Shown here piece after piece: positions 4,145 through 63,000 of a stretch of DNA of 64,000 nucleotides. Below the pieces are notes generated by a model. It searched no databases and was not told the origin of the DNA. It saw nothing but the letters and a program-made list of their open reading frames with translations. Positions within the stretch are counted from its first letter, which is position 1. Every line of letters begins with the position of its first letter. The stretch comes from the human T2T-CHM13v2.0 reference genome, Homo sapiens, in assembly GCF_009914755.1 (NCBI RefSeq), contig NC_060946.1. One strand, 5' to 3'. The position numbers and the translations under genes are program-made.

Positions 4145-5725
<1,581 letters not shown>

Positions 5726-8838: not shown

Positions 8839-9286
8839 TTTTTTTTATTTTCAACACTTTATTTTACTTTTTTTAAAGTTAGTTGTTTTTAATTTATTAT
8901 TATTATACTTTAAGTTTTAGGGTACATGTGCACAATGTACAGGTTTGTTACATATGTATACATGTGCCATGCTGGTGTGCTGCACCCACTAACTCGTCAT
9001 CTAGCATTAGGTATATCTCCCAATTCTATCCCTCCCCCTTTCCCGCACCCCACAACAGTCCCCAGAGTGTGATGTTCCCCTTCCTGTGTCCATGTGTTGC
9101 TCTCATTGTTCACTTCCCACCTATGAGTGAGAATATGCGGTGTTTGGTTTTTTGTTCTTGTGATAGTTTACTGAGAATGATGATTTCCAATTTCATCTAT
9201 GTCCCTACAAAGTACATGAACTCATCATTTATTATGGCTTCATAGTATTCCATGGTGTATATGTGCCACATTTTCTTAATCCAGTC
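8839..9286 (-). mobile_element. Short 5'-truncated LINE-1 3' end (L1PA2-like) with ~60-bp interrupted A-tail
   Basis: ATTATACTTTAAGTTTTAGGGTACATGTGCACAATGT at ~8902 is the reverse complement of the L1 3' end. CACTAACTCGTCATCTAGCATTAGG is the reverse complement of CCTAATGCTAGATGACGAGTTAGTG (GAG type, not the L1HS-Ta ACA). L1 similarity ends at TTTTCTTAATCCAGTC (9286). Confidence 0.93.
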
Positions 9287-18541: not shown

Positions 18542-20006
18542 CACAGTACAGTGGAGTGGAATGGAATGGAATGGAATGGAGTAGAGTGAAGTGGAGTGGT
18601 GTGGATTGGAGTGGAGAGGAGTGAAATGGAATGGAGTGGATTTCAAAAAAATGGAATGGAATGGAGTGGTGTGTAGTGGAATGGAATGGAGCAGAGTGAA
18701 GTGGAATAGAATGGAGTGGAATGGAATGGAGAGGAGTGGAATGGAATGGAGTGGAGTGGAGGGGATTGGAGTGGAGTGGAGGGGATTGGAGTGGAGTGGA
18801 GTGAAGTGGAGTTAAATGGAGTGGAATGGTATGGAATGGAAATGAATGGAATGGAGTGGAATGGAATGGAATGGAGTGGAGTGGAGTGGAATGGAGGGGA
18901 ATGGAGTGAAATGGAGTGGAGTGGAATCGAGTGGAGTGGAATGGAATGGAGTAGAATTGAACGGAGAGGAAATGAATGAAACGGAATGCAACACATTGGA
19001 ATGAAGTGGAGTGGAGTGCAGTGGAGTTGAGTGGAGTGGATAGGAATTCAGTGCAATGGAATGGAATGGAATGTAAGGGAGTGGAGTGGAGTGGAGTGGA
19101 GTGGATTGGAGTGGAGTGGAGTGGAGTGGAATGGAGTGGAATGGCATGGAGTGGAGTGGAATGGAATGGAATGGAATGAAATTGAATGGAATGGAAAGGA
19201 ATGGAATGCAACGGAATGGAACAGAATGGAGTACAGTGGAGAGGAGTTGAGTGGAGTGGATCGGAGTGCAGTGGAATGGAATGGAATGGAATGGAATGGA
19301 ATGGAATGGAATGGAATGGAAAGGAATGGGATGGAGAAGAGTGGAATGGAAAGGAGTGGAGTGGAATGTAATGGAATGTAATGGAAAGGAATGGGATGGA
19401 GTGGAGTGGAATGGAAAGGAGTGGAGTGGAATAGAATGGAGTGGAGTGGAATGGAATGGAGTGGAGTGGAGTGGAATGGAGTGGAGTGGAGTGGAATGGA
19501 ATGGAGAGGAGTGCAGAGTAATGGTATGGATTGGAATGGAATGGAAGGGAGTGGAGTGCAGTGGAGTGGATAGGAAGGCAGCGGAATTGAATGGAGTGGA
19601 ATGGAATGGAGTGGAGTAGAGTGGAGTGGAGTGGAGTTGAGTGGAATGGATCAGAGTGAAGTGGAATGGAATGGAATGGAGTGGAGTTTAGTGGAGTGGA
19701 GAGGAATTTAATGGAAAGGAGTGGACTGGAAAGTTTTGGAGTGGATAGGAAGGAATGGAACATAAAGGAATGGAATGGAATGGAAAGGAATGGAACGGAA
19801 TGGAGTGGAGTGCAGTGGAGTTGAGCCGAGTCAATGTGAGTGCAGTGGAAAGGAAAGGAATGGAATGGAACAGAATGGAACGGAATGGAACGGAATGGAA
19901 TAGAGTAAAGTGGGATGGAAGGGAGTGCAGGAGAGTAGAGTGGAGTGGAGTGCAGTGGAGTGGAGTGGAATGGAATGGAATGGAGTTGAATGGAATGGAA
20001 AGTAAT

Positions 20007-23000
20007 GGTGAAATGCATTGTGAGCTAAGATTTTGCCACTGCACTCCAGTCTGGGTGACAAAGTGAGATCCAAATGAAATAAACTAATCGAATGGAATGC
20101 AGTAGAATGGAAGGGAATGGAGTGGAGTGGAGTGGAGTGGAGTGGAGTGCAGTGGACTGGAGTGGAACGCAGGGAATGGAATGGAGTGGAGTGGAACGGA
20201 GGGGAATTGAATGGAGTAGAGTGGAATGGAATGGAAAGGAACAGAATGGAATGGAATGGAACAGAATAGAATGGAAGGTAACAGAATGAAGTGGAGTGGA
20301 GAGGAGTGCAATTGAGTGGAGTGGATCGGAATGGAGTGGAATGCAATGGAATGAAATGGCATGGAATGGAGTGGAATGGAATGGAGTGGAGTGGAGTGGA
20401 GTAGAGTGGAGTGGAGTGGAGTGGAGTGGAGTGGAGTGGAATGGAATGGAATGGAATGCAATGGAATGGTGAAATGTAATGTGAGCTAAGATTGTGCCAC
20501 TGCACTACAGTCTGGGTGACAGAGTGACATCCAATAGAAATAAAGGAATGGAATGGAATAGAGTAGAGTGGAATGGAATGGAGTGGAGTGGAATGGAATG
20601 CAGTGGAACGAAGTGGAATGGAGTGTACTGGAATGGAGTAAAGTGGAATTGAGTGGAACGAAAAGAAATGGAATAGAGAGGAATGGAATGGAATGGAGTG
20701 GAATGGAATGAAGTGGAATGGAGCATAATGGAATGGAGTGGAGTGGAATGGAGAGGAATGGAGAGGAAAGGAATGGAATGGAATGGATGGAATGCAATGG
20801 AATGGAATGGAATGGAATGGAATGGAATGGAATGGAATAGAGTGGAATGGAATGGAATGGAATGGAGTGGAATGGAACGCAAATCAGTGGCATGGAATGG
20901 AGTGGAGAGGAATGGAGTGGAATGAAGTGGAATGGAGTTGAATGGAGTGGAATGGAGTGAAATGGAGTGGAATGGAATGGAGTGGAGTGGAATGGAATGG
21001 AGTGGAATAGAAAGGAACGGTACAGAATGAAAAGGAACGGAATGGAACAGAGTGCAGTAGAGTGGAGTGAGAGGAGTGGATCGGAGTGCAGTGGAACGGA
21101 ATGGAATGGAATGGAGTGGAGTGGAGTGCAGTAATGGAATGGAGTAGAATGGAGTGGAGTGGAGTGGAGTGGAGTAATGGAATGGAGTAGAATGGAGTGG
21201 AATGGAAGGGAGTGCAGTGGATTGGAGTAGAATGCCGTGGAATGGAATGGAGTGGAGTGGAATGGAGTGGAATGGAATGGAATGGAATGAAATAGAATGG
21301 AATGGAAGGGAAAGGAGTGGAGTGGAATGGAGTGGAATGGAATGGAATGGAATGGAATGAAATAGAATGGAATGGAAGGGAAAGGAGTGGAGTGGAATGG
21401 AGTGGAATGGAATGGAATGGAATGGAATGGAATGGAATGGAATGGAATGAAATATAATGGAATGGAAGGGAACGGAGTGGAGTGAAGTGGAGTTGAGTGG
21501 AGTGGATTGGCCTGTAGTAGAATGGAATGGAATGGAAGGGAATGAAATGGAATAGAGTGGAGTGGAATGGAATGGAGTGGTATGGAGTGGAGTGGAGTGG
21601 AACGGAGTGAAGTGGAATGGAGTGGAGTGGAATGGAGTGGGATGGAATGAAATGGAATAGAGAGGAATGGAATGGAATAGAATGGAATGACGAGGAATAT
21701 AGTATAATGGAGTGGAGTGGAGTGGAATGGAGTTTAGTGGAATGGAGTGTAATGGAATGGAAAGGAATGGAAAGGAATGGAAAGGAATGCAATTGAGTGG
21801 AATGGAATGGAGTGGAGTGGAGGGGAGTGGAGAGGAGTGGAGTGGCGTGCAGTGGAATGGAGTGCTATGGAGTGGAGTGGAGTGGAATGGAATAGAGTGG
21901 AATGGAATGGAATGGTACAGAACGGAATGGAACAGAATGGAAAGGAGTGGAGTTGAGTGGATTGTAGTGGAGTAGAGTGGAGTGGGTTGGAATGCAGTGG
22001 AATGCAAGGGAATGGAATGGAATGGAGTGGAGTGGAGTGCATTGGAGTGGAGTGGATTGGAGGGGAATGGAGTAGAATGGAGTGGAATGGAATGGAGTGG
22101 AGAGGAATGGAGTGCAACGGAATGGAAGGAATGAAATGGAACCGAATGGAAGGGAATGGAGTGGAGTGGAGTAGATTTGAGTAGAGTGGAATGGAGTGCA
22201 GTGGAATGGATTGGAATGGAATGGAGTGGAGTGGAATGGAATGGAATGGAATGGAATGGAATGGAATGGATTGGAGTGGAGGGGAATAGAGTGGAGTACA
22301 GTGGAGTGGACAGGAATGGAGTGGAGTGGAATGGAATGGAATGGAATGGAGTGGAGTGGAAAGGAATGGAGTGGAGTGGAATGGAAGGGAGTGCATTGGA
22401 GTGGAATTGAGTGGAGTGGAGTGGAATGGAATGGAGTGGAGTGCAGCAGAATATAATGCAGTGGAATGGAATAGAATGGAGTGGAGTGGAGTGGAGTGGA
22501 ATGGAATGGAGTGGAGTGCAGCAGAATATAATGCAGTGGAATGGAATAGAATGGAGTGGAGTGGAGTGGAGTGGAATTGATTGGAGTGCAGTGGAATGGA
22601 ATGGAATGGAATGGAGGGGAGTGGAGTGGAGTGGAATGGAGAGGAACGAAATGGAGTGCAGTGGAATGGAATGGAATGGAATGGAGCGAAATGGAATGGA
22701 ATGGATTGGAATGGAATGGAATGGAATGGAAAGGAGTGGAGAGGAGTGGAGGGGAATGGAGTGGAGTGGAGTTGAGTGGAGTGGATCACAGTGCAGTAGA
22801 CTGGAATGGAATGGAATGAAATGGAATGGAGTGGAGTGGAGTGAAATTTAATGGAATGAAGTGGATTGGATTGGAGTGGAGTGGAGTGGAGCAGAGTGTA
22901 GTACAATGGAATGGAGTGGAGTGTAGTACAATGGAATGGAGTGGAGTGGAGTACAATGGAATGGAGTGGAGTGGAGTACAATGGAATGGAGTGGAGTGCA

Positions 23001-26000
23001 ATGGAATGTAATGGAATGGAGTGGAGTGGAGTGCAATGGAATCCAGTGGAGTGATGTGGAGTGGAGTGGAACGGAGTGGAGAGGAATGGCATGGAATGGA
23101 ATGGAATGGAATGGAATGGAATGGAATGGAATGGAATGGAATGGAATGGAAAGGAATGCAATGGATTGTTGAAGTGAAATATGAGCTAAGATTATGCCAC
23201 TGCACTCCGGTCTGGGTGACAGAGTAAGATCCAGTCGAAATAAACAACTGGAATGGAATGGAGTAAAATCGAAAGAAATGGAGTATACTGGAACAGAATG
23301 GAGTGGAATTGAGTGGAGTGGAGTGGATTGGAGTGGAGTGGAATGGAGTAAACTGGAATGGAGTAGAATAGAGTGAAATGGAATGGAATGAAAACAAGTG
23401 GAATGGAATGGAATGGAGTGGAATGGAGTTTAGTGGACTGGAATGCAGTGGAGTGGAATGGAGTTGAATTGAGTGGAATAGAATGGAATAGAATAGAGTG
23501 GAGTGGAATGGAATAGAGTGGCATGGAGTGGAGTAGAGTGGAGTGGAATGGAATGGAATAGAATGGAGTGAAATGGAGTGGTGGGGAATGGAGTGGACTG
23601 GAACGGAATGGAGTGGAATGGAACAGAAATGAAGGGAAGAAAATGGAATGAAGAGGAGTGCAGTGGAGTGGAGTGGAGTTGAGTGGAATGGATCAGAGTG
23701 GAGTGGATTGGAATGAACTGGAATGGAATGGAATGGAGTGGAGTGGAGTGAAGTAGAGTGGAGTAGAGTGGAGTGGAATGGAATGCAGTGGAGTGGAATG
23801 GAATGGAATGGAACGGAAAGCAATGGAATGGAACAAAATGGAATGGAACGGAAAGGAAAGGAGTGGTGTGGAGTGAAGTGGGGTGGAGTAGATGGAGTTG
23901 TTCAGAGTGCAGTGGAATGGAATTGAATTGAATTGAGTGCAGCAGAATGGAATGGAATGGAGTTGAGTGGAGTGGAGTGGATTGGAATGGAACGGAATGC
24001 AATGGAATGGTATTGAATGGAATGCAATGGAATGGAATGGAATGGAATGGAATGGAATGGAATGGAATGGAGTGGAATGGAATGGAATGGAATGGAATGG
24101 AATGGAATGGTGAAATGAAATGTGAGCAAAGATTGTGCCCCTTCACTGCACTCTAGGTGACAGAGTGAGATCAAGTCGAAATAAAGGAATGGAATGGAAT
24201 GCAGAAGAATGGAATGGAATGGAATGGAGTGCAGTGGATTGGAATGGAATGGAGTGGAAGGGAGTGGAATAGAGTGGAATGGAGTAAAGTGGAACAGAGC
24301 GGAGTGGAATGTAGTGGAATGGAGGACAATGGAGTAGAATGGAGTGGAATGCAATGGAACGAAATGGAATGGCATTTAATGGAGGGGAATGGAGTGGAAT
24401 GGAGAGGAGTGGAAAGAAATGGAAAGGAATGGAAGGGAATGGAGTGGAGTGGAGAGGAGTGGAATTGAGTGGAGTGGATTGCAGTGCAGTGAAATGGAAT
24501 GGAATGCAGTGGAGTGGAGTGAAGTGGAATGGAGTGGAATGGAATGGAGTAGAGTGTAAAGGAATGGAATGGAATGGATTAGAGTGTAAAGGAATGGAAT
24601 GGAATGGAACGGAATGGAATGGAATGAAAAGAAATGGATCAGAGTGGAGTGGAGTCCAGTGGAGTTGAGTGGAGTGGATCTGAGTGTACTGGAATGGAAT
24701 GGAATGGAATGGAATTGAATGGAATGGAATGGTATGGGATGGGATGGGATGGAATGGAATGGAATGGAATGGGATGGAAAGGAATGAAATGGAATGGAGT
24801 AGAGTGGAGACGAATGTAATGGACTGGAAGGAATTGGAGTGGAATGGAAGGGAATGGAATGGAGTGGAAAGGAATGGAAAAGAGTGGAATGGAATGGTGA
24901 AATGAAATGTGAGCTAAGATTGTGCCACTGCATTCCAGTATGGGTGACAGGATGAGATTCAATTGAAATAAAGGAATCGAAAGGAATGCAGTAGAATGGA
25001 ATGGAATGTATTGGAGTGGAGTGGTGTGGAGTGGAGTGGAGTGGAATGGAAGGGAGTGGAATGGAATGGAGTGGAGTAGAATGGAATGGAATGGAACAGA
25101 ATGGAATGGATTGGAACAGAATGGAATCGAACTGAAGGGAACGGAGTAGATTGGAGTGGAGTTGAGTTGAGAGGATCAGAGTGCAGTGGAATGGAATCAT
25201 TGGAATGGAATGGAATGAAATGGATTGGAGTGGAATGGAATGGAGTGGAGAGGAGTGGGGTGGGGTGGAGTGGAGTTGAACGGAAAGGAATGGAATGGAA
25301 TGGAATGGAATGGAATGGAATGGAAAGGTGAAATGTAATGTGAGCAAAAATTATGTCAGTGCACTCCAGTCTGGGGGTCAGAGTGAGATCCAATCGAAAT
25401 AAAGCAATGGAATGGAATGGAGTTGAATGGAATGGAATGGAGTGGATTGGCATGCAACAGAGTGGAATGGAGTGGAGTGGAGTGGAATGGAATGTAGTGG
25501 AGTGGAGTGGAGCGCAGTATAATGGAGTGGAATGGAGTGAAATGGAGTGAAATGGAATGGAGTAGATTGGAGTAGAATGGAACGGAATGGCACGGAATGC
25601 TATGGAATGAAATGGAATGAAATGGAACGTATTGGAGTGGAGTGGAGATGAGTGGATTGGATTGGAGTGCAGTGGAATGGAATGGAATGGAATGAAATGG
25701 AATAGAATGCAATGGAGTGGAATGGAGTGGAGTGGAGTGGAAAGGAATGGAATGGAGTGGATTGGAATGGAATGGAACGGAATTCAGTGGAATGAAAGGG
25801 AACGGAGTGGAGTGGAGTGGAACGGAGTTGAGTGGAGTGGATCAGAGTGCTGTGGAAAGGAATGGAATGGAATGGAAAGGAGTGGAGTGGAATGGAATAA
25901 AATGGAGTGGAGAGGAGTGGAGTGGAGTAGAGTGGAGTGGAATGGAATGGAAAGGAGTGGAATGGAGTGCAATGGAATGGAATACAGTGGAATAGAATGT

Positions 26001-29000
26001 AATGGAGGGAAGTGGAATGGAATGGAATGGAATGGAATGGAATAGAGTGGAGTGGAATGGAATGAAGTGGAGTCGAACTGAATGGAGTGGAGTGGAGTGA
26101 AATTGAATGGTGTGGAGTGGAAGGCAAAGAATGGAATGGAATGAAGTGGAGTGGACTGGATTGCAGTGGAGTGGAATGAATTGGAATGGAGTGGAATGAA
26201 ATGGAATGCAATGGAAAGGAAAGCAGTGGAGTGGAATGGAATGGAATGGAGTGGAGGCCAGTGGAGTGGAGTGGAATGGAAAGGAGTGGAAAGAAATGGA
26301 ATGGAATGGAACGGAATGGAGTGGTGTGGAGTGGAGTGGAATTGAGTGCAGTGGATCAGAGTGCAGTTAAATGGAATGGAATGGAGTGCAGTGGAGTGGA
26401 ATGGAGTGGAATGCAATGGAGTGGAGCGGAAAGGAATGGAATGGAAACAGAATGGAATTTAATGGAATGAAAAGGAATGGATTGGAGTGTAGTGGAGTGC
26501 AGTGGAGTTGATTGGAGTGGATCTGAGTGTAGTGTAATAGAATGGAATGGAATGGAATGGAATGGAATGGAATGGAATGGAATGGAATGGAGTGGAATGG
26601 AATGGGGTGGAGTGGAGTGGAGTGGAATGGAATGGAGTGGAGTGGAATGGAATGGAGTGGAGTGGAATGGAATGGAGTGGAGTGGAGTGGAATGGAATGG
26701 AATGGAATGGAGTTGGATGGAATGGAATGGTGAAATGAAATGTGAGCTAAGATTGTGCCACTACACTCCAGTCTGGGTGTCAGAGTGAGATCCAATCAAA
26801 ATAAAGTAATGGAATGGAATGGAGTTGAATGGAATGGAATGGTGTGGATTGGCATGCAACGGAGTCGAATCGAGTGGAGTGGAGTATAGTGGAGTGGAAT
26901 GGAGTGAAATGGTGTGGAATGGAATGGAGTGCAGAAGAATGGAATGGAGTGGAATGGCACAGAATGGTACAGAATGAAATGGAACTGAATGGAAAGTATT
27001 GGAGTGGAGTGGAGTTGAGTGGACTGGATCGGAGTGCAGTGGAATGGAATGGAATGGAATGGAATGGAATGGAATGGAATGGAAGAGTGGAGTGGAGTGA
27101 AGTGGAGTGGAATACAGTAGAATGCAGTGGAATGGAATGGAGTGGATTGGAGGAGAATGGAACGGAATGGAATGGAATGGAAAGGATTTGAGTGGAATGT
27201 AAGGGATCGGAGTGGAGTGGAGTGGAACGGAGTTGAGTGGAGTGGGTCAGAGTGCAGTGGAATGGAATGGAATGGAATGGAGTGGAGTGGAGTGGAACGG
27301 AATGGAGTGGAGTGGAGTGGAATGGAATCGAATGGAATGGAGTGGAGTGGAGTGGAGTGGAGTGGAATGGAATGCAGTGGAATGGAATAGAATGGAGTGG
27401 AATGGAATGGAATACAGTGGAATAGAAAGGAATGGCGGGGAGTGGAATGGAATGGAATAGAATGGAATGGAATGGAATGGAATGGAATGGAATGGAATGG
27501 AATGGAATGGAATGGAGTGGAATGGAATAGAGTGAAGTGGAATGGAATGGAGTGGAATGGAATAGAGTGAAGTGGAATGGAGTGGAGTGGAGTGGAGTAA
27601 AATAGAGTGGAATGAAGTGGAATGGAATGGAGTGGATTGAAATGGAGTGAAGTGGAGTGTAATGGAATGGAGTGGAATGGAATGAATTGGAGGAGATTGG
27701 AGTGAAGTGCAGTGGAGTGGATTGGAGTGCTGTGGAATGGAATGGGATGGAATGGAGTGGAGTGGAGTGGAGTGGAATGGAGTGGAATGGAATGGAATGG
27801 AATGGAACGGAACGGAATGGAACAGAATGGAAAGGAGTGGAGTGGAGTGTAGTTGAGCGGAATAGATCGGAGTACAGTGGACTGGAATGGAAAGGAAAGT
27901 AATGGAGTGGAGTGGAGTGGAATGGAATGGAGTGGAGTGGAGTGAAGTGGAGGGGAGTTGAGTGGAGTCGAATGGAATGAAATGGAGTGGAATGGAGTGG
28001 AATGGAATGGAATGGAATGGAATGGAATGGAAAGGAATGGAAAGGTGAAATGAAATGTAAGCTAAAATTCTGCCACTGCACTCCAGTCTGTGTCACAGAG
28101 TGAGATCCAGTCGAAATAAAGGAATGGAATGCAATGGAGTAGAATGGAATGGAATGGAGTGGAGTAGAATGGAATGGTGTGGAATAGAGTGTAATGGAGT
28201 GGAATGGAATGGAGAGGAGTGGAATGGATTGGAAAGGTGTGGAATGGAATGGTATGGAAGGGAGTGGAATGGAATGGAATGGAGTAGAATGGAGTGGAGT
28301 GGAATGGAAAGGAGTGGAAAGAGTGGAGTGTAATGGAGTGTAATGGAGTGAAATGGAGTGACGTGGAAAGGAGTGGAATGGAGCTGCATTGACAGGAATG
28401 GAATGGAGTGGAGTGGAATGGAATGGAGTGGAGTGGAGTGGATGGAAGTGGAATGAAGTGGAATAGAGTGAAATGAAGTAGGGTGGACTTTAGTGGAGTG
28501 GAATGGAATGGAGTGAAAAGTAATGGAATGGAATTGATCTGTGTAGAGTGGAGTGGAGTTCAGTGCAGTGGATCGGAGTTCAGTGAAATGGAAAAGAGTG
28601 GAATGGAATATAGTGGAGTGGAGTGCAGTACAGTGGAGTAGAGTGAAATGGAGTGGAATGTCATTGAATAGAATGCATTCGAGTGGAATGGAATGGAATG
28701 GAAAGGAATGGAAAGGAATGGAACGGAATGGAATGGAACGGAAAGGAACATAGTGCAGTGGAGGGTAGTTGATTGAAGTGGAGCGGAGTGCAGTGGAATT
28801 GAATGGAATAGAATTAATTGGAATGGAGTAAAGTGGAATGGAATGGAATGGATTGGAATGGATTGGAGTGTAGTGAGTGGATCAGATTGCAGTGGAATGG
28901 AATGGAATGGAATGGAAAGGAGTGAAGTGGAGTGGAGTGGATTGGAGTGGAATGGAGTAGAATGGAGTGGAATGGAATGGAGTGCATTGGAATGGAATGG

Positions 29001-53000: not shown

Positions 53001-56000
53001 AATGGAATGGAGCAGAATGGAGTGGAGTGGAGTGGAATGGAGTGGAGTGGTGTGGAATGGAGTGGAATGGAATGGAGTGGAGTGGAGTGGAATGGAGTGG
53101 AATGGAGTGGAGTGGAATGGAGTGGAATGGAATGGAGTTTAGTGGAAAGGAATGTAATCGAATGGAACTTAATGGAATGAAACGGAATGGAAGGGAACAG
53201 AAAGGAATGGAGTGGATTGGAATGGAGTGCAGTGGAGTACAGTGGAGTCTATCAGAGTGCAGTGAAATGGAATGTAAGGGAATGGAGTGGAATGGAGTGG
53301 AGTCGAATGGAAATTAATGGAGTGGAGTGGAGTGGAGTGGAGTGGAATGGAATTGAGTGGAGTGGAATGGCATGGAATGGATCGGAGTGCAGTGGAATGG
53401 AATGCAATGGAATAGAATGGAATGGAATGGAATGGAAAGGAAAGGAATGGTGAAATGAAATGTGAGCTGAGACTGTGCCACTGCACTCCAGTATGCGGAA
53501 AAGAGTGAGATCCAGTCGAAATAAAGGACTGGAATGGAATGGAGTAAATTTGAAAGGAATGGACTGCTGTGGAATGGAATGGAGTGGAAAGGAAAGGAGT
53601 TGTGTGGAATGGAGAGGAGTGGAATAGAGTAGAGTGTAATGGAGTGGAGTAAAGTGTAATGGACTGAAACGGAATGGAATGCAGTGGAATGGAATGGAAT
53701 GGAATGGAGTGGAATGGAGTGGAGTGGAGTGGAATGGAGGGTAGTGTAATGGAGTGGAGTGGAATGGAGAGGAATGGAATGGAGTGGGGTGGAAAGGAAT
53801 GGAATCCAATGGAACTTAATGGAATGAAACGGAATGGAAAGGAACAGAATGGAATGGAGTGGATTGGAGTGGAGTGTAGTGGAGTTGAGTGGAGTGTATA
53901 GGGGTGCAGTGAAGTGGAATTTAAGGGAATGGAGTGGAATGGAGTGGAGTTGAATGGAATGGAATGGAATGGAGTGGAGTGGAGTGGAGAGGAGTGGAAT
54001 GTAATGGAGTGAAGTGGAGTGGAATGCAATGGAATGGAATGGAATGCAATGGAGTGGAGTGGAGTGGAATCGAGTGGAATGAAATGGCAAGGAATGGAAT
54101 GGAATAGAATGGAATGCAATGGAATGGAATGGTGAAATGAAATGTGAGCTAAGACGGTGCCACTGCACTCCTGTCATGGAGACAGAGTGAGATCCATTCG
54201 GAAATAAGGAATGGAATGCAATGGAGTAGAATGGAATGGAATGGAGTGGAGTGGAATGGAATGGAGTGGAATGCATGGGAGTGGAGTGGAATGGAGTGGA
54301 GGCAAATGGAGTGGTGGAATGGTGTATAGTGAAGTCTAATGGAGTGAAATGGAGTGGAACGGAGTGAAATGGCATGGAGAAGAATTCGGTGGAATGGAAT
54401 GGAATGGAATGGAATGGAATGGAATGGAATGGAATGGAATGGAGTGGAGTGGAATGGAGTGGAGTGCAGTGGAATGGTATGGATTGGAGTGGAATATAAT
54501 GGGGTGGAGTGGAATGGAATGGAAAGAGTGAAATTGAGTGGAGTGGAATGGAAGAGAATGCAATGGAACAGAATGGAATGGAATGGAAAAAGGCGTGGAG
54601 GGGATTGGAGTTGACTGGAGTGGATTGGAGGGCAGTGAAGTGGAATGGAATGGAATGGAGTGGTGTTTAGTGGACTGGAGTGGAGAGCAGTGGAGTGAAG
54701 TGGAATGGAATGGAGTGGAGCGGAATGGAATTGAATGGAGTGGAGTGTAGCGGAATGGAAAGGAGAGGAATGGAATTGAATAGAATGGAATGGAAAGGAA
54801 TGCAATGGAATGGATTGGAGTGAAGTGGAGAGGAATGAAGTGGAATGGAGTAGAAAGGAATGGAATGAGGTGGTTTGCAATGGAATTGATTTTAAAGGAA
54901 TGGAGTCAAGAGCAGTGGAGTGAAGTGCAGTGGAGCAGAAAGGAGTGAAATGCAGTGAAAAAGAGTGGAGTGGAATGGAATGGAACAGAATGGAATGGAG
55001 AGGAGTGGAGTGGACAGGAGTGCAGTGGAATGTAATGGAGTGGAGTGCAGTGGAGTGGAGTGGAGTAGAGTGAATTGGAATGGAAGGGAATGGACTGTAG
55101 TGGAGTGGAATGGAATTGAGTGGAGTGGAGTGGAATGGAATTGAGTGGAGTGGAATGGAATGGAATGGAATGGAATGGAATGGAATGGAGAAGAGTGGAA
55201 TGGAAAGAATAGGAATGGAATGGAATGGAATGGAATGGAATGGAATGGAATGGAATGGAATGGAATGGAATGGAATGGAATGAAATGGAATGGAATGGAG
55301 AAGAGTGGAATGGAAAGAATAGGAAAGGAATGGAATGAAGTGGAATGAAATGGAGTGGACTGGACTGGATTGAAGTTAAGTGGAATGGAATGGAGTGGAA
55401 TGGAATGGAGTGCAATGGAATGGAGTGGAGTGGATCGGAGTGCAGTGGAATGGAATGGAATGGAGTGAAGTGGAGTGGATTGGAATTGAGTGGAGTGGAG
55501 TCGAATGGAGCGGAATGGAATGGAGAAGAATGGAATGGAAAGGATTGGAATGGAATTGAATGAAGTGGAATAGAATGGAGTGGACAGGAGTGGATTGAAG
55601 TTAGGTAGAATGGAATGGAGTGGAAACGAATGGAGTGGAATGGAGTGGAGTGGATCAGAGTGAAGGGGAATGGAATGGAATGTAGTGAAGGGGAATGGAA
55701 TGGAATGTAGTGCAGTGGAATGGAATGGAATGCAGTGGAGTGGAGTGGAGTGAAGTGGATTCGAGTGGAGTTGATTGGAGTTGAATGGAATGGAATGGAG
55801 AGGAATGGAATGGAAGGGAGTGGAGGGGAATGGAAAGGAATGGAAGGAAATGGAATGGAAATTAGTGGAGTGGAATGGAATGGAATGGACTGGACTGGAA
55901 TGGAGTGGAGTGGAATGGAATGGAGTGGATTGGAGTGGAGTGGAGTGGAGTGGAGTGGAGTGGACTGGAGTGGAGTGGAGTGCAGTGGACTGCAGTGCAA

Positions 56001-59000
56001 TGAAGGGGAGTGGAGTGGAGTGGAATGGAGAAGAATGGAATGGAGTGTACTGTAATGGAAGGGAATGGAAACGAATGGGATGGAATGGAACAGAACGGAA
56101 TGGAAGAGAATGGAATGAAGTGGACAGGAGTGCAGTGGAGATGAATGGAGTGGATCGCATTGTAGTGGAATGGAATGGAGTGGAGTGGAGTGGAATGGAG
56201 AAGAATGGAATGGAATGGAGTAGAATGGAAAGGAATGGAGTGGAGTGGAGTGGAATGGAGAAGAATGGAATGGAATGGAGTAGAATGGAAAGGAACGGAT
56301 GGAGTGGAATGGAAAGTAATGGAATGGAACAGAATGGAATGGAGTGTACAGGAGTGGAGTGGAGTTGAGTGGAGTAGATCGCAGCACAGTGGAATGGAAT
56401 GGAATGGAATACAATGGAGTGGGGTGGAGTGTATTTCAGGGGACTGGAGTGGAGTGGAGTGGAATGGAATGGAGTGGAGTGGAATGGAGTGGAATGGGAC
56501 AGAACGGAATGGAGTGCAACTGAGTGGATAGGAGTGGATTGGAGTTGAGTGGAGTGGATCAGAGTTCAGTGGAATGGAATGGAATGGAATGGAATGGAAT
56601 GGAATGGAATGGAGTGGAGTGGAGTGGAGTGGAATGGAGTGGAATGGAGTGGAATGGAATGGAGTGAAGTGGAATGGAGTGGAATGGAAGGGAATGCAAT
56701 GGAATGTTTAAATGAAATGTCAGCTAAGATTGTCCCACTGCACACCAGTCTGGTTGACAGAGTGAGATCCAGTCGAAATAAAGAAATGGAATATAACAGA
56801 GTAAAATGCAAAGGAATGGGAGGGGGGTGGAATGGAATGGAGTGGAAAGAAGGGAGTGGAGTTGTTAGGAGTAGAGTGGAATGGAGTGGAGTGGAATGGA
56901 TTGGAGTGGAATGGAGTGTAATGAAGTGGAGTGGAATTGAATGGAATGGGGTGGAATGGAATGGAATGAAGTGGAATGGAATTGAGTCCCGTTGAGTCAA
57001 GTGGAATGGAGTGAAATGGAGTAGAGTGGAATGGAGTGCAGTGGAATGGAAAGGATTAAAATGGAATGGAATGGAACGGAGTGTACAGTAGTGGAGTGTA
57101 GTGGAGTTGAGTGGAGTGGATCAGAGTGCAGTGGAATGCAATGGAATGGAATGTAGTAGAGTCGAGTGGAGTGAAGTGGATTGCAGTGGAATGGAGTGGA
57201 ATGGAATGGAGTGGAGAGGAATGGAATGGAATGGAATGGAACGGAATGCAGTGGAGTGGATTGGAATGGAATGGAGTGGAGTTGTGTGGAGTTGAGTGGA
57301 GGGGAGTGGACTGAAGCGGAATGGAATGAAATGGTGAAATGAAATGTGAGCTATGATTGTGCCACTGCATTCCAGTCTGGGTGACGGAGTGACATCCAAT
57401 TGAAATGATGGATTGGAATGGAATAGAGTGGAGTGGAATGGAATGGAGTGGAATGGAGTGGAATGGAGTGGAATCGAATGGAATGGAATGGAGTTGAATG
57501 CAATGGAATGGAGTAGAGTGGAATGGAGCAGAGTTGAGTGGAATGAAGTGGAATGGAATGGAACGGAATGGAACAGAATGGAATGGAGTGCAGTGGAGCG
57601 CATCATAATGGAGTTTACAGTAGTGGATTGGAATGCAGTGGAATGGAATGGAATGGAGTGGAGTGGAGTGGATTGGAGTGGATTTTAACAGAGTGTAATG
57701 GAATGGAGTGGAGTGTAATGGAATGGAACCGAACGGAATGAAACGGAGTGGAGTAGAGTGGAGTTCAGTGGAGTGGATCAGAGGGCAGTGGAAAGGAATA
57801 AAATGGAATGGAATGGAAAGAAGTGTAGTGGAATGGAATAGGGTAGAGTGGAGTGGCTTGGAGGGAATGAAGTGCCATGGAGTGAAATAGAGTTTAGTGG
57901 AATGGCGTGGAGTGGAATGGAGTGGAATGGAATAGAAAGGAATGGAGTGGAATGGAATGGAATGTAGTAGAATGGAGTGGAGCGGAGTGGAATTCAGTGA
58001 AATGGAGTGCAATGGAATGGAGTGGAATGGAAAGGAATGGAACGGAACTGAACAGAGTGGAACGGAGTGGATTGGAGTGGATTGGAGTGGAGTGGAGTGG
58101 TTCAGAGTGCAGTGGAAAGGAATGGAATGCAAAGGAGTGGAGTGCTGTGGAGTGGAGTGGATTGGAGTGGAGTGGAAAGGAGTGGAATGGAGTGAAATGG
58201 AGTGGAATGGAATGGAGTGGAGTGGAATGGAACAGAGTGGAACGGAACGGAATGGAATGGAATGGAACGGAATGGAATGAAACGGAAGGGAACGGTATGG
58301 ACTGGTGTGGAGTTGAGTGGAATGTATCAGAGTGCAGTGGAAAGGGATGGAATGGAATTGAATGCAATTGAATGGAATGGAGTGGAGTGAAATGGAATGG
58401 AATTGAATGGAATGCAATGGATTGGAGTGAAATGGAATGGAATTGAATGGAATGCAATGGAATGGAAAGGAATGAAATGGAACGTAATGGAATGGAGTGG
58501 AGTGGAGTGGAGTTTAATAGAGTGGAGGGGGCTGTTGTGGATTGGAATGAAATGCAATGCAATGGAGTGGAATGGAGTGGAGTGGCATGGAGTGCAATGA
58601 AATAGAACGCAGTCGAATGGAAAGGAGATGAGTGGAATGGAGTGGAGGGTAATGGAGTGGAGGGGAGTGGAGAGGAATGGAGTGGATTGGAGTCGAGTGG
58701 AGTGGAATGGAGTGGAATGGAATGGAAAGGAATGGAATGGAATGGGTTGGAATGGAGTGGGTTGGAGAGGAATGGATTGGAGTGGAGTGGAATGCAATGC
58801 AATGGAACAAAATGGAATGAAATGGAAGGAAACAGAGTAGAGTGGAGTGGAGTTCAGTGGAGTTGACGGAACGGGATCGGAGTTCAGTGGAATGGATAGG
58901 AATGCAATTGAATGGAAAGAGGTTGAGTGGAATGGAATGGAATGAAATGGAAAGGAATGGAAAGGAGTGGAGTGGAGTGGAGTGGAGAAGATTGGAGTGG

Positions 59001-62000
59001 AAGGGAGTGGAGTGGAGTAGAATGGAGTGGAATGGAATAGAGTGGAGTGGAATGGAATGGAATGGAAAAAAATGGAATGGAATGGAATGGAATGCAACGG
59101 AACGGAGTGGAGTGCCTTGCGGTGGACTTGAGTGGAGTGGAGTGGAATGGATTGGAAAGGAGTGGAATGGAATGGAAAGGAATGCAGTGGAATGGAAACG
59201 AATGTAGTGCAATAGAATGGAGTGGAGTGGAGTGGAGTGGAATTGAGTGGAATTGAGTGAAATGGAGTGGACAGTTATGGAGTGGAGTTAAATGGAGTGG
59301 AGTGGAATGGAATGGAATGGCACGAAATGGAACGGAATGGAATGCAATGGAATGGAGTGGAGTGTAATGAAGTTGATTGGAGTAGATCGGAGTGCAGTGG
59401 AATGGAATGGAATGGAATGGAATGGAATGGAAAGGAATGGAATGGAATGGAATAGAGTGGAGTGGAGTGGAGTGGAATTGAGTGGACTGGAGTAGTGTGC
59501 AGTGGAGTTTAGAGGAATGGATTGGAGTTGAGTGGAATGGAAAGGAATGTATTGGAATGAAATGTAACGGAGTGGAATGGAATGGAATGGAGTGCAGTGG
59601 AGTGGAATGGAATGCAATGGAATGGAATGGAATGGAATGGAATGGAATGGAATGGAATGGAATGGAATGGAATGGAATGGAATGGAGTGGAATGGAATGG
59701 AGTGGAGTGGAATGGAATGGAATGGAGTGGATTGGAATGCAACGTAGTGGAGTGGAGTGGAATGGAGTGGAGTGGAGTGCACTGGAGTGGAATTGGGTGA
59801 AATGGAGTGGAGTGGAGTGGAGTGGAATGTATTGTAGTGGAATGGAGAGGAGTGGAGTGGAGTAGAGAGGAGTGGACTGGATCGGAGTTCAAAGGAATGG
59901 AATGGAATGGAATGGAATGGAATGCAGTGGAGTGGAGTGGAATGGAGTGGAAAAGAATGGAATGGAGTGGAATTGAGTGGACTGGAAAGGAGTGGAAAGG
60001 AGTGAAATGGAATGGAGTGGAATGGAGTAAAATGGAATGGAAAGGAGTGGAATGGAGTGGAGTGGAATGGAGTGCAGTGGAATGGAGTGGACTGGAAGGC
60101 AGTTGAATAGAGTGGAATGGAATGGAATGGAATGGAATGGAATGGAATGGAGTGTAATGTAGTGGAATGGAGTGGAGTGGAGTGGAATGAAGCGCAGTCT
60201 AATGGAGTGGAGAGGAATGGAGTGGAATCGAGGAAAACGGAGAGGAGTGGAATGAAGTGGAGTGGAATGGAATGGAGTGGAATGGAAAGCAACAGAACGG
60301 AATGGATCAGAATGGAATATAACGCAGTGGAGAGGAGTGGACGGTAGTGAAGTTGAGTGAAGAGGACTAGAGTGTAGTGGAATCGAATGGAAATAAATGG
60401 TATGGAATGGAGTGAAGTGAAGTGGAGTGGAGTAGAGTGGACTGGAGTGGAATGGAGTGGAATGGAATGGAATGGAGTAGAGTGGAATTGAATGGAATGG
60501 AATGGAAAGGAATGGTATTCTGAAATGTAATGAGAGCTAAGATTATGCCTCTGTACTCCAGTGTGTGTGACAAAGAGAGATCCAGTCAAAATAAAGGAAT
60601 TGAATGCAATGGAGTAGATTGGAATGGAATGGAGTGGAGTGGAATGGAATTGGGTGGAATGGAGTGGAGTGGAATGGAGTGGGTTGGAGAGGAATGGATT
60701 GGAGTGGAGTGGAATGCAATGTAATGGAAAAGAATGGAATGGAATGGAAGGGAACAGAGTGCAGTGGAGTGGAGTGCAGTGGAGTTGACTGAAGTGGATG
60801 GGAGTGCAGTGGAATGGATAGGAATGCAATCAAATGGAAAGAGGTTGAGTGGAATGGAATGGAATGAAATGGAAAAGAATGGAAAGGAATGGAGTGGAGT
60901 GGAGTGTAATTGAGTGGAGAACAGTTGGGTGTAGTTGAGTTGAATGGAGTGGAGTTGAGTGGAGTGGAATGGAGTGCAATGGAACGGAATGGAGTGGAAT
61001 GGAATGGAATGGAGTGAATTTCAAAGGAGTGGAATGTAACGGAGTGGAATGCAATGGAATGGAATGGAATGGAATGCGACGGAATGGAATGGACTAGACT
61101 AGAGATGAGTGGAGTAGAATGGATTGCAGTGGCCTGGAGTGGAGGGGAGTTGAGAGGAGCGGATCAAAGTGCAGTGGAATGGAATGCAATGGAATGTAAT
61201 GGAATGAAGTGGAGTGGAATAGAATGGAATGGAGTGGAGTGGAGTGGCATGGAATGGAATGGAAGGGAATGGAATGGAATGCAATGGAATGGAACGGAAC
61301 GGAACGGAATGGAATGGAATGGAATGGAATGGAATGGAATGGAATGGAATGGAATGCAATGGAATGGAATGGAATGCAATGGAATGGAATGGAACGGAAT
61401 GGAATGGAATGCAATGGAATGGAACGCAATGGAATGGAACGGAATGGAATGGAACGGAATGGAAGGGAATGGAATGGAATGGAATGGTGAAATGAAATGT
61501 GAGCTAAGATTGCGCCACTGCACTCCAGTCTCGGTGACACAGTGATATCCAGTCGAAACAAAGGAATGGAATGGTATGGAATGGAATGGAGTAGAATGCA
61601 ATGGAATGGAGTGGAGTGGAATGGAATAGAGTGGAATGTAGTGGAGTGGAATTGAGTGGAATGGAATGGAGTGGAGTGGAATGGAATGGAATGGAGTGGA
61701 AGGGAAAGGAGTGCCTTGGAATGGATTGCAATGGAACGGAATGGAAAGGAATGGAAAGGAACGGAACGGAGTGGAGTGGAGTAGATTGGACTGGATTGGA
61801 ATGCACTGGAATGGAATGGCATGGAATGGAATAGAGTGGAATGGAATGGAGTCGAGTGGAGTGGAGTGGATTGGAGTGGACTATAGTGGAATGGAGTGAA
61901 ATAGAGTGGAGTGGAAATGAGTGGAGTGGAATGGAATGGGGAGGATTGGATCGGAATGGAACAGTACGGAAAGGAACGGAATGGAAAGGAGTGGAGTGGA

Positions 62001-62489
62001 GTGGAGTTGATTGGAGTGGATCACAATGCAGTGGAATGGAATGGAATGGAATGGAATGGAATGGAATGGAATGGAAGGGAGTGGAGTGGAGTGGAATGGA
62101 GTGGAATGGAATGGAGTGGAGTGGGATGAAATGAAATGGAAAGGAACGGAGTGGAATGCCATGGAAGGGAATGGAATAGAATGGAATGGAATGCAACGGA
62201 ATGGAATGGACTGGAGTGGAGTTGAGTGGAGTAGAATGGATAGCAGTGGACTGGAGTGGAGGGGAGTTGAGAGGAGTGGATCAAAGTGCAGTGGAATGGA
62301 ATGCAATGGAATGTAATGGAATGAAGTGGAGTCGAATGGAATGGAATGGAGTGGAGTGGAGTAGAGTGGCGTGGAATGGAATGGAGTGCAATGGAATGCA
62401 ATGGAATGGAATGGTGAAATGAAATGTGAGCTAAGATTGTGCCACTGCACTCCAGTCTGGGTGACAGAGTGATATCCAGTCGAAACAAA
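20007..62489 (+). mobile_element. ~40 dispersed copies of a 77-bp Alu-3'-end-derived cassette, amplified as part of the satellite (span gives first to last copy)
   Basis: Consensus GGTGAAATGAAATGTGAGCTAAGATTGTGCCACTGCACTCCAGTCTGGGTGACAGAGTGAGATCCAGTCGAAATAAA versus the Alu right-arm end GTGAGC(TAT/CGA)GATCGCGCCACTGCACTCCAGCCTGGGCGACAGAGCGAGAC(CCT/TCC)GTCTCAAAA. Approximate TGAGC positions: 20021, 20482, 23182, 24123, 24910, 25341, 26743, 28058, 29868, 30269, 31665, 32777, 33358, 34004, 34906, 36172, 36993, 37888, 38855, 39537, 40454, 41685, 42267 (truncated), 43257, 44074, 44985, 47017, 47594, 48613, 48984, 50664, 52041, 52828, 53463, 54145, 56720, 57347, 60533, 61500, 62427. Confidence 0.92.
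45050..46330 (+). repeat. Locally homogenised tandem expansion within HSat3 (105-bp and 490-bp periods)
   Basis: GGATTGAAGTGGAATGGATTGGAAAGG recurs with TTGAAG at ~45161, 45266 and 45371 (105 bp). GTGGGCTGAAGTGGAATAGATTGG occurs at 45441 and 45931 (490 bp). Confidence 0.85.
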
Positions 62490-63000
62490 GGAATAGAATG
62501 AATGGAAAAGAGTAGAATGGAATGGAAAGGAATGGAGTGGAGTGGAATGGAATAGAGTGGAATGTATTGGACTGGAATTGAGTGGAATGCAATGGAATGG
62601 AGTGGAATGGAATGCAATGGAGTGGAAGGGAAAGGAGTGCCTTGAAATGGATTGCAATGGAACGGAATGGAAAGGAATGGAAAGGAAAGGAATGGAATGG
62701 AATGGAGTGGAGTGGAGTAGATTGGACTGGATTGGAGTGCACTGGAATGGAATGGAATGGAATGGAATAGAACGGAAAGGGAATGGAGTGGAATGGAATG
62801 GAGTCGAGTGGAGTGGAATGGATTGGAGTGGACTATAGTGGAATGGAGTGGAATGGAGTGAAATGGAGTGGAGTGGAAATGAGTGGAGTGGAACGGAATG
62901 GGGTGGATTGGATCGGAATGGAACAGTACGGAAAGGAACGGAATGGATAGGAGTGGAGTGGAGTGGAGTTGATTGGAGTGGATCAGAGTACAGTGGAATG
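61050..63000 (+). repeat. ~930-960-bp tandem duplication of a complete cassette-plus-pentamer unit
   Basis: Shared rare variants GATATCCAGTCGAAACAAAGG, AAAGGAGTGCCTTG (~61705/62632), GGACTATAGTGG (~61878/62829) and ACAGTACGGAAAGG (~61961/62922). Confidence 0.85.

What the first reader, a model, noticed from the sequence alone, without database searches (positions are those of the whole stretch)
20007..62489. Composite satellite: a constant 77-bp Alu-derived cassette punctuates HSat3 about 40 times, separated by variable pentamer spacers
Seen: 39 full copies and 1 truncated copy of one cassette, all co-oriented, separated by ~370-3200 bp of GGAAT/GGAGT. All copies share the same breakpoints and the same non-Alu substitutions (CAGTCT, GAGATCCAGTCGAAATAAA), and none has a TSD or poly-A tail. 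Inference: these are not independent Alu insertions. One ~60-bp Alu 3' fragment was captured and then co-amplified, so the true repeat unit is [cassette + variable pentamer tract]. HSat1B is a known precedent for an Alu-containing satellite, and GGAGT-rich satellite III families are known. I cannot tell from the sequence alone whether this cassette architecture has been described in detail.
Basis: partly seen in the sequence, partly recalled or inferred. Interest (0 to 1): 0.8.

Follow-up and report, generated by a model that had tools for sequence, protein, structure and literature searches.

The report
Alu-tail fragment repeated inside satellite III
A 77-base piece made mostly of the tail end of one Alu element was caught once in a GGAAT/GGAGT satellite and copied along with it, which is real and neatly shown here but is an already reported feature of satellite III on the human acrocentric and Y chromosomes.

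Summary
The window has 39 co-oriented full copies of a 77-bp cassette (37 are exactly 77 bp) and one 22-bp stub, between 20007 and 62489. They sit in GGAAT/GGAGT satellite III and are spaced 371-3186 bp apart.

Cassette positions about 14-77 are the last ~64 bp of an Alu right arm plus a stub of its A-tail. All copies share both edges.

Genome-wide, the 3' junction 30-mer occurs 1,098 times and the 5' junction 2,286 times, against 0 for reversed controls. The copies lie on chr13, 14, 15, 21, 22 and Y and at the edge of 9q12. The 5' edge is also found on chr1, 3, 4, 10 and 20. One capture followed by co-amplification is therefore well supported.

The array is old. Copies are 85% alike pairwise, neighbours are no closer, and there is no regular higher-order period.

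The window is one copy of a large duplicated block. The chr14 copy differs by 0.57% in substitutions, and 16 of 16 indels are multiples of 5.

Novelty is refuted. The T2T-Y preprint describes HSat3 intermingled with Alu fragments that cluster between Y and the acrocentrics. The T2T centromere preprint notes TE fragments inside HSat3 units. Interest is low.

The parts
1..18541 (.). Monomeric/dimeric alpha satellite (171/342-bp periods) flanking the array. It has a strand switch near 1904-1932 and two LINE-1 fragment interruptions (4152-5737, 16595-17771).
   Evidence: TRF; GC-skew sign change; RVT_1 match in the 4143-5228 minus-strand frame; thousands of dispersed genomic matches
18552..64000 (+). 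GGAAT/GGAGT satellite III (HSat3) array. It runs off the window end. Cassette junction matches continue to at least window-equivalent position 97766 (chr22:11,939,766).
   Evidence: TRF period 5; GGAAT 31.4% and GGAGT 23.6% of bases; junction hits beyond the window
20007..20083 (+). cassette copy 1 (77 bp)
20468..20544 (+). cassette copy 2 (77 bp)
23168..23244 (+). cassette copy 3 (77 bp)
24109..24185 (+). cassette copy 4 (77 bp)
24896..24972 (+). cassette copy 5 (77 bp)
25327..25403 (+). cassette copy 6 (77 bp)
26729..26805 (+). cassette copy 7 (77 bp)
28044..28120 (+). cassette copy 8 (77 bp)
29854..29930 (+). cassette copy 9 (77 bp)
30255..30331 (+). cassette copy 10 (77 bp)
31651..31727 (+). 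cassette copy 11 (77 bp)
32763..32839 (+). cassette copy 12 (77 bp)
33344..33420 (+). cassette copy 13 (77 bp)
33990..34066 (+). cassette copy 14 (77 bp)
34892..34968 (+). cassette copy 15 (77 bp)
36158..36234 (+). cassette copy 16 (77 bp)
36979..37055 (+). cassette copy 17 (77 bp)
37874..37950 (+). cassette copy 18 (77 bp)
38841..38917 (+). cassette copy 19 (77 bp)
39523..39599 (+). cassette copy 20 (77 bp)
40440..40516 (+). cassette copy 21 (77 bp)
41671..41747 (+). cassette copy 22 (77 bp)
42253..42274 (+). truncated copy: only the first ~22 nt of the cassette, then pentamer-like sequence
   Evidence: nhmmer E=0.36, model positions 2-22; read directly
43243..43319 (+). cassette copy 23 (77 bp)
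44060..44136 (+). cassette copy 24 (77 bp). It is 100% identical to chr14:9084609-9084686 and was used as the query.
44971..45047 (+). cassette copy 25 (77 bp)
47003..47079 (+). cassette copy 26 (77 bp)
47580..47656 (+). cassette copy 27 (77 bp)
48599..48675 (+). cassette copy 28 (77 bp). With copy 29 it forms a recent 371-bp local duplicate (89.9% over cassette plus flanks).
48970..49046 (+). cassette copy 29 (77 bp)
50650..50726 (+). cassette copy 30 (77 bp)
52029..52103 (+). cassette copy 31 (75 bp; 2-bp internal deletion)
52814..52889 (+). cassette copy 32 (76 bp; 1-bp internal deletion)
53449..53525 (+). cassette copy 33 (77 bp)
54131..54207 (+). cassette copy 34 (77 bp)
56706..56782 (+). 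cassette copy 35 (77 bp)
57333..57409 (+). cassette copy 36 (77 bp)
60519..60595 (+). cassette copy 37 (77 bp)
61486..61562 (+). cassette copy 38 (77 bp)
62413..62489 (+). cassette copy 39 (77 bp)

Best explanation
The array is old, decayed satellite III (HSat3). Its ancestral repeat unit was a GGAAT/GGAGT pentamer tract plus one 77-bp cassette. The cassette is about 13 nt of degenerate pentamers followed by the last ~64 nt of one Alu right arm, including a stub of its A-tail.

Inferred history: a single Alu, either 5'-truncated at insertion or cut down later, came to lie in pentamer satellite. It was then amplified passively with its flanks by unequal exchange. It has no role of its own: no Pol III promoter part is present and there is no sign of constraint.

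Shown: spacer length drifts by gain and loss of whole pentamers. Large blocks (alpha satellite + LINE-1 fragments + this array) have since been duplicated and exchanged among acrocentric short arms, so the chr22 window has a near-identical twin on chr14.

This is the HSat3-Alu-fragment association already reported for chrY and the acrocentrics. The array most likely belongs to the acrocentric GGAGT-rich subfamily HSat3A4 (the pTRS-47 kind).
For: Shared edges: 39 of 39 window copies have the same left and right edges, and 37 of 39 are exactly 77 bp. Flank consensus is conserved and in pentamer phase out to +-400 bp.

Alu origin: cassette positions 14-62 hit 17 places in 2 of 3 arbitrary euchromatic 10-kb stretches at 86-100% identity. 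In L010 all 8 hits lie in the 3' part of Rfam Metazoa_SRP-like Alu arms, 7 of them in 144-151-nt arms and 1 in a 117-nt arm. L010:5848-6140 reads as a complete dimeric Alu with A-tail. Alignment A1 shows homology starting at GTGAGC and running into the tail. The chr3 variant keeps a more Alu-like ...TCTCAAAAGA end.

Single origin: the 3' junction 30-mer (<=3 mismatches) has 1,098 genome matches and the 5' junction has 2,286. Reversed controls give 0 and 0.

Age and lack of homogenisation: copies are 91.5% identical to their consensus and 84.9% pairwise, and adjacent pairs are 84.7%. Identity is flat (0.776-0.797) over index lags 1-15. The 24-mer spacing spectrum has no dominant period. Two linked sites define two interspersed cassette subtypes (10/2/5/16, Fisher p=0.0014). 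Both forms of the 3'-junction site (the position written as R in the pattern) occur on other chromosomes.

Pentamer drift and block duplication: chr14:9,080,001-9,090,000 is collinear with window 39452-49335. Over the first 8,000 alignment columns there are 45 substitutions in 7,850 aligned bases (0.57%), and 16 of 16 indels are multiples of 5. Spacer lengths mod 5 are 0:16, 4:14, 3:6, 2:2, 1:0. The two LINE-1 fragments in the window's alpha satellite recur at 100% and 99% identity on chr14 at the same offset, and at 91-97% beside cassette arrays on chr13, 15, 21, 22, 20 and 16.

In print: passages seen. HSat3A4 localises to 13, 14, 15, 21, 22 and Y, and pTRS-47 is assigned to it. The published 3A4-specific 24-mers that I could see are rich in the complement of GGAGT.
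Against: The Rfam scan of 10.5 kb of the array gave no SRP/7SL match; the fragment is too short for that model.

Subfamily assignment is not proven. The most common HSat3A4-specific 24-mer of Altemose 2014 has 0 matches in the window, as do those of 3A1, 3A2, 3B3, 3B4 and 3B5. A fuller k-mer test could not be run. The 1,366-bp unit reported for pTRS-47 is not a period of this window.

The direction of events (Alu into satellite, or satellite growing from the Alu tail) is not settled by the sequence.

Unequal exchange as the amplifying process is inferred, not observed.

The cassette is more alike between copies (84.9%) than ungapped flanks are (74.3% at +1..+77). I put that down to pentamer indels in the flanks, but it does not exclude weak constraint.
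Confidence: 0.85

Rival explanations
1. The Alu came first. Its A-tail degenerated into an A-rich pentanucleotide repeat that expanded to (GGAAT)n. Tandem duplication of [Alu 3' fragment + tail-derived pentamers] then founded this lineage of satellite III, so the cassette would be the seed rather than a passenger.
For: The cassette ends exactly at the A-tail and passes straight into GGAAT repeats. The chr3 variants show purine-rich intermediates between tail and pentamers. [quoted passage not shown]
Against: Pentamers flank the cassette on both sides in one register. The listed junction matches on chr9 (0-1 mismatch) lie only at the distal edge near 76.68 Mb, not inside the 27.6-Mb array. Only the first 100 of 1,098 and of 2,286 matches were listed, so this is not a full survey. 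HSat2/3 are described as derived from an ancestral (CATTC)n repeat.
Confidence: 0.08
2. The cassette is kept because it does something, for example as a protein-binding site or a boundary that punctuates the pentamer array.
For: Constant length (37 of 39 at 77 bp) and higher pairwise identity than the ungapped flanks (84.9% against 74.3%).
Against: Copies have 243 substitutions over 37 copies, spread along the whole cassette, with transitions 115 and transversions 128. One copy has lost all but 22 nt. Spacing varies nearly ninefold. The flank figure is depressed by pentamer indels. No promoter part of Alu is present.
Confidence: 0.04
3. The copies are independent Alu insertions into a satellite that is a preferred target.
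For: None found. Alus are abundant and satellites can accumulate insertions.
Against: Identical 5' and 3' edges in 39 of 39 copies, shared derived substitutions, one orientation, conserved flanks, and more than 1,000 genome copies of each junction against 0 in controls.
Confidence: 0.01

Closest known systems
HSat3-associated Alu fragments on chrY and the acrocentric short arms (T2T-Y preprint 10.1101/2022.12.01.518724, section on Yq heterochromatin; passages seen)
   Same: Same chromosomes (Y pericentromere and chr13, 14, 15, 21, 22) and the same kind of object: HSat3 blocks intermingled with Alu fragments. The paper reports that these fragments cluster together phylogenetically, with no local homogenisation and no clustering by chromosome. 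That matches the flat identity profile found here.
   Different: In the passages I saw, the paper gives no unit, length or breakpoints. It calls the fragments AluY. I could not test the subfamily, because the last 64 nt are not enough with the sequences I was allowed to use. Here the fixed 77-bp form, the shared edges, the junction counts and the wider spread of the 5' edge (chr1, 3, 4, 9, 10, 20) are added.
Acrocentric satellite III subfamily HSat3A4 / clone pTRS-47 (Altemose 2014, PMC4022460, passages and Table 1; Choo 1990 and Bandyopadhyay 2001 seen only as citations)
   Same: The localisation 13, 14, 15, 21, 22, Y equals the cassette's 3'-junction distribution apart from one chr9 edge array. 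The subfamily-specific 24-mers I saw are GGAGT-rich on the other strand, and the window is 23.6% GGAGT. pTRS-47 is a chr14/chr22 subfamily, and the window has a 99.4%-identical twin on chr14.
   Different: The 1,366-bp unit reported for pTRS-47 is not a period here. The top 3A4 24-mer is absent from the window. Whether pTRS-47 itself carries the cassette could not be checked, because the paper is not held.
HSat1B / DYZ2, the Alu-containing composite satellite
   Same: An ancient Alu piece is a fixed subunit of a tandem repeat found on Y and the acrocentrics.
   Different: HSat1B has a regular ~2.5-kb unit of three parts with a large Alu subunit and is highly homogenised on Y. Here the piece is 64 nt, the companion is pentamer satellite, spacing is irregular and copies are not homogenised. 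The published tree separates the two Alu clades deeply.
WaluSat and composite repeats of the T2T repeat preprint (10.1101/2021.07.12.451456; passages seen)
   Same: Another case of an Alu tied to a satellite that spread by segmental duplication and expanded on acrocentric short arms.
   Different: In WaluSat a 64-nt non-Alu monomer next to an AluSx3 is what amplifies. Here the Alu fragment itself is the repeated landmark inside another satellite. The preprint's text has no occurrence of HSat3, HSATII, GAATG, 'Alu fragment' or 'pentamer'.

Membership tests
Human satellite III (HSat3) | Arrays derived from the pentamer GGAAT/CATTC | tested here: met
   TRF period 5 from 18552. GGAAT makes up 31.4% and GGAGT 23.6% of bases in 18552-64000. 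Pentamer phase is kept +-400 bp around cassettes.
HSat3A4 / pTRS-47 acrocentric subfamily | Localisation to chr13, 14, 15, 21, 22 and Y | tested here: met
   Exact 3'-junction matches: chr13 3, chr14 6, chr15 14, chr21 3, chr22 17, chrY 4, making 47 of 47. The first match outside these chromosomes is on chr9, at 1 mismatch. This tests the cassette's distribution, not the array's label.
HSat3A4 / pTRS-47 acrocentric subfamily | Subfamily-specific 24-mers of Altemose 2014 Dataset S2 | tested here: inconclusive
   The single most common 3A4 24-mer has 0 matches in the window, and so do the top 24-mers of 3A1, 3A2, 3B3, 3B4 and 3B5. Only 65 3A4-specific 24-mers exist, each in 1-3% of reads. A test with more of them could not be run.
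HSat3A4 / pTRS-47 acrocentric subfamily | 1,366-bp (1.37-kb) higher-order unit | tested here: not met
   No dominant period appears in the 24-mer spacing spectrum. Cassette periods are 371-3186 bp, with only 4 of 38 between 1315 and 1402. Cassette-to-cassette spacings of 1365-1366 bp do occur at other loci (L013, L018, L030).
Alu (7SL-derived SINE) | Sequence homology to the Alu right arm | tested here: met
   17 hits at 86-100% identity in two euchromatic 10-kb stretches. All 8 hits in L010 lie within the 3' part of Rfam SRP-like Alu arms. Alignment A1.
Alu (7SL-derived SINE) | 3' A-tail | tested here: met
   The cassette ends in an A-rich 7-8 nt that aligns with the first bases of the tails of three genomic Alus. 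Only a stub remains.
Alu (7SL-derived SINE) | Dimeric ~300-bp body with internal Pol III promoter in the left arm | tested here: not met
   Homology starts at GTGAGC, ~64 nt from the end. Upstream sequence is pentamer-like and does not align with Alu. It is a fragment, not an element.
Alu (7SL-derived SINE) | Target-site duplication | not testable with these tools
   Both flanks are pentamer repeats, so any short direct repeat is expected anyway.
Composite repeat as defined in the T2T repeat papers | [quoted passage not shown] | tested here: not met
   The unit has two components, an Alu fragment and pentamer satellite. It fits 'satellite whose unit includes a TE fragment' better.
Higher-order or nested tandem repeat | A regular multi-unit period with copies more alike at that lag | tested here: not met
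   Mean identity by cassette index lag is flat at 0.776-0.797 for lags 1-15, and there is no dominant 24-mer spacing. Denser sister arrays do show ~2.0-2.4-kb periods.

The most novel reading that the evidence does not exclude
The Alu fragment is the founder of this lineage of satellite III rather than a passenger. Under this reading an Alu A-tail turned into a pentanucleotide repeat, as in disease-type (TGGAA)n expansions. The unit [Alu end + tail-derived pentamers] then seeded arrays that now carry more than 2,000 copies of one 5' breakpoint on at least 12 chromosomes. That would give a datable, single-event origin for a sizeable part of HSat3.
Probability: 0.1. Interest if true: 0.45.

Novelty: already known. 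Interest (0 to 1): 0.15.

Why it matters
It matters little for discovery, because the association of HSat3 with Alu fragments on Y and the acrocentrics is published. The details measured here have practical use. The cassette and its two junctions are unique-sequence landmarks inside otherwise low-complexity pentamer arrays. They can anchor read mapping, check assemblies, and trace exchange between acrocentric short arms, the region involved in Robertsonian translocations. The shared 5' breakpoint offers a single-event marker for ordering the diversification of HSat3 arrays across chromosomes and, if searched in ape assemblies, for dating it. The chr14/chr22 comparison gives a clean measurement of how these arrays change: 16 of 16 indels were whole pentamers, against 45 substitutions in 7.85 kb.

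Tried and rejected
- A fuzzy regular-expression search found only 2 copies. This was a method artefact, and blastn and nhmmer replaced it.
- An Rfam E-value scan of 19900-30400 gave no SRP/7SL match, only a chance snoRNA hit at E 2.7. Alu origin was tested instead against Alus fetched from the same genome. One of the three euchromatic stretches (L009) gave no hit.
- Cassette-derived 18-20-mers and the four most frequent window 24-mers are absent from Altemose 2014 Datasets S1-S4. The label 'HSat3A4' is not used there; the files say '3A4'.
- The top Table-1 24-mers of six HSat3 subfamilies have 0 matches in the window.
- A wider k-mer test with published 24-mers was not run.
- A higher-order repeat was looked for in three ways and not found in the window.
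- The target-site duplication test is uninformative in a pentamer repeat. A possible GAAAT-type direct repeat at both edges is as well explained by the A-tail.
- The Alu subfamily (Y, S or J) was not assigned.
- Sampling of the chr1, 4, 10 and 20 arrays was not possible. Only 1 kb of chr3 could be added.
- The notes of earlier readers were closed.
- Choo 1990, Choo 1992 and the Science version of the repeat paper are not held.
- Bandyopadhyay 2001 was seen only as a reference.
- Assembly artefact was rejected: the same structure recurs with graded divergence on many chromosomes.
Full report
**What is there**

The first 18.5 kb of the window is monomeric/dimeric alpha satellite with 171- and 342-bp periods. 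From 18552 to the window's end the sequence is pentamer satellite. TRF gives period 5, strong G-over-C skew starts there, and GGAAT and GGAGT make up 31.4% and 23.6% of the bases.

A blastn search with one copy found 39 matches, all on the + strand. A profile search found the same 39, all full length, and none elsewhere in the window. In the alignment 37 of 39 are exactly 77 bp, one is 75 bp and one is 76 bp. The first begins at 20007 and the last ends at 62489.

A relaxed search added one + strand stub at 42253-42274 that keeps only the first ~22 nt. Its other 29 weak matches were short, on the - strand and at E 1.5-9.8, and I set them aside as noise.

Periods are 371-3186 bp with a median of 922. 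A 37-nt core matched 28 times at up to 3 mismatches, against 0.00 expected from shuffles.

**What the cassette is**

Rfam did not recognise it. I therefore fetched three arbitrary euchromatic 10-kb stretches of the same genome.

- Cassette positions 14-62 hit 17 places in two of the three stretches at 86-100% identity, and none in the third.
- In L010 all 8 hits lie in the 3' part of Rfam Metazoa_SRP-like Alu arms, 7 in 144-151-nt arms and 1 in a 117-nt arm.
- L010:5848-6140 reads as a complete dimeric Alu ending in an A-tail.
- Alignment A1 shows homology beginning at GTGAGC and continuing through the end of the Alu body into the first bases of the tail.
- Upstream, the cassette's first ~13 nt look like degenerate pentamers and do not align with Alu.

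So about 64 of the 77 nt come from an Alu 3' end, and a tail stub is present. A cassette variant on chr3 keeps a more Alu-like ending. A target-site duplication cannot be assessed, because both flanks are the same short repeat.

**One origin**

All window copies share both edges. The flanks are conserved, with a recognisable pattern of GGAAT and GGAGT units on each side, and they stay in pentamer phase for at least 400 bp both ways.

In the whole assembly the 3' junction 30-mer (up to 3 mismatches) occurs 1,098 times and the 5' junction 2,286 times. The reversed control patterns give 0.

The exact 3' matches are on chr13 (3), chr14 (6), chr15 (14), chr21 (3), chr22 (17) and chrY (4). One array lies at chr9:76.68 Mb, the distal edge of the large 9q12 block. 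The 5' edge is also found in pericentromeric arrays on chr1, 3, 4, 10 and 20, usually with a variant one step closer to Alu. In 1 kb of chr3, three different cassette subtypes share that same 5' edge.

Independent insertions are excluded. A single capture that predates the split of many HSat3 arrays is the simplest reading.

**State of the array**

The copies are old.

- They are 91.5% identical to their own consensus and 84.9% identical pairwise. Adjacent copies (84.7%) are no closer than distant ones.
- Identity over cassette plus flanks is flat (0.776-0.797) for index lags 1-15.
- The 24-mer spacing spectrum has no dominant period.
- A few reciprocal best pairs lie at ~5 kb, ~11.4 kb and 371 bp, which points to scattered old local duplications.
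- Two linked sites define two interspersed cassette subtypes (Fisher p=0.0014). Both forms of the 3'-junction site occur on other chromosomes, so this cassette variation is not private to the window.

**How it changes and spreads**

Chr14:9,080,001-9,090,000 is collinear with window 39452-49335. Over the first 8,000 alignment columns there are 45 substitutions in 7,850 aligned bases (0.57%) and 16 indels. All 16 are multiples of five, from 5 to 25 bp. The last 2 kb of that alignment is rearranged, and I left it out of these counts.

Spacer lengths in the window are strongly non-uniform modulo 5 (0:16, 4:14, 3:6, 2:2, 1:0). Variable spacing is thus explained by gain and loss of whole pentamers.

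The two interruptions of the window's alpha satellite are LINE-1 fragments. This rests on an RVT_1 match in one frame and on thousands of dispersed genomic matches. They recur at 100% and 99% identity on chr14 at the same offset as the cassettes. They also recur at 91-97% beside cassette arrays on chr13, 15, 21, 22, 20 and 16.

The whole window is therefore one copy of a large duplicated block shared among acrocentric short arms, and much of the present copy number comes from that.

**Two spacing classes**

Sampling 24 further 9-10-kb stretches showed two classes.

- About 850-1170 bp median spacing: the window and its paralogues.
- About 380-416 bp median spacing: chr13:9.60, chr14:3.08 and 5.58, chr22:8.45, chrY:10.94 and 11.01, and chr9:76.68 Mb.

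Two of the four dense arrays examined (L016, L031) show a ~2.0-2.4-kb higher-order period.

**Mechanism, with what is shown and what is inferred**

Shown:
- the Alu 3'-end identity
- the shared edges
- the genome distribution
- the lack of local homogenisation
- the pentamer-unit indels
- the block paralogy

Inferred:
- that one Alu was inserted into, or truncated within, pre-existing pentamer satellite
- that unequal exchange amplified the unit
- that the cassette is a neutral passenger

The main rival is that the Alu tail itself grew into the pentamer repeat and seeded these arrays. The sequence does not exclude it. I rate it low because pentamers flank the cassette on both sides in one register, and because HSat2/3 are described as deriving from an ancestral (CATTC)n repeat.

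**Comparison with what is known**

[quoted passage not shown] Among its citations for this is Bandyopadhyay 2001 on acrocentric satellite III subfamilies, a paper I saw only as a reference.
[quoted passage not shown] It says those on Y cluster phylogenetically with those on the acrocentrics, and that there is no local homogenisation and no clustering by chromosome. That is this object, and my measurements agree with it.
- Altemose 2014 (passages, Table 1 and Dataset S2) places subfamily HSat3A4 on 13, 14, 15, 21, 22 and Y and assigns clone pTRS-47 (1,366 bp) to it. A review places pTRS-47 on chr14/22.

The window fits HSat3A4 by distribution, by GGAGT richness and by its chr14 twin. It fails the 1.37-kb period and lacks the top 3A4 24-mer, and a fuller k-mer test could not be run. 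I therefore give the subfamily as probable, not proven.

My six literature searches found no text that gives the 77-bp form, its breakpoints or its counts. The older clone papers and the supplements of the T2T preprints could not be read and may well contain them.

**Verdict**

The feature is real, cleanly delimited and correctly interpreted, and it is already reported in substance. The added value is descriptive:

- the exact edges
- the A-tail stub
- the junction counts
- the wider reach of the 5' breakpoint
- the two spacing classes
- the pentamer-only indel spectrum between chr14 and chr22

Noticed in passing
window 1-64000 versus chr14:9.04-9.10 Mb: The whole window appears collinear with chr14 at a near-constant offset of about 2,801,255-2,801,451 bp. 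The LINE-1 fragments are 100% and 99% identical. The satellite differs by 0.57% in substitutions over 7.85 kb. This looks like a very recent chr14/chr22 exchange or duplication.
   Followed up: partly
window 1904-1932: The alpha-satellite monomers switch strand here. The TRF consensus of 1-1904 is the reverse complement of that of 1932-4152, and the GC skew changes sign. This is an inversion breakpoint in the monomeric alpha satellite.
   Followed up: no
window 4152-5737 and 16595-17771: Two interruptions of the alpha satellite are LINE-1 fragments. A 361-aa minus-strand frame at 4143-5228 matches Pfam RVT_1 (E 6.7e-17). Both stretches have more than 12,000 first-look genomic candidates. The same pair recurs beside cassette-bearing HSat3 on chr13, 14, 15, 21, 22, 20 and 16.
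   Followed up: partly
L016 (chr13:9.60 Mb), L031 (chr22:8.45 Mb), L020, L021, L012, L013, L035: A second class of arrays carries the same cassette about every 380-416 bp, with many partial or more diverged copies. L016 and L031 show a ~2.0-2.4-kb higher-order period of about five cassettes. These arrays may be closer to the ancestral unit.
   Followed up: partly
L036 (chr3:95,524,401-95,525,400): Three different cassette subtypes lie within 1 kb. All share the window's 5' edge but have different 3' ends, and one is clearly more Alu-like. The 5' junction is about twice as frequent genome-wide as the window-type 3' junction (2,286 against 1,098).
   Followed up: partly
chr21:10,221,546 / 10,249,193 / 10,276,855 (listing): Exact 5'-junction matches recur in pairs about 27.65 kb apart, three times in a row. 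This suggests a tandem ~27.6-kb duplication of cassette-bearing satellite on chr21.
   Followed up: no
window 18541-18552: The alpha satellite meets the pentamer satellite abruptly, with about ten bases between the two TRF arrays. The first 1.45 kb of HSat3 (18552-20006) has no cassette.
   Followed up: no
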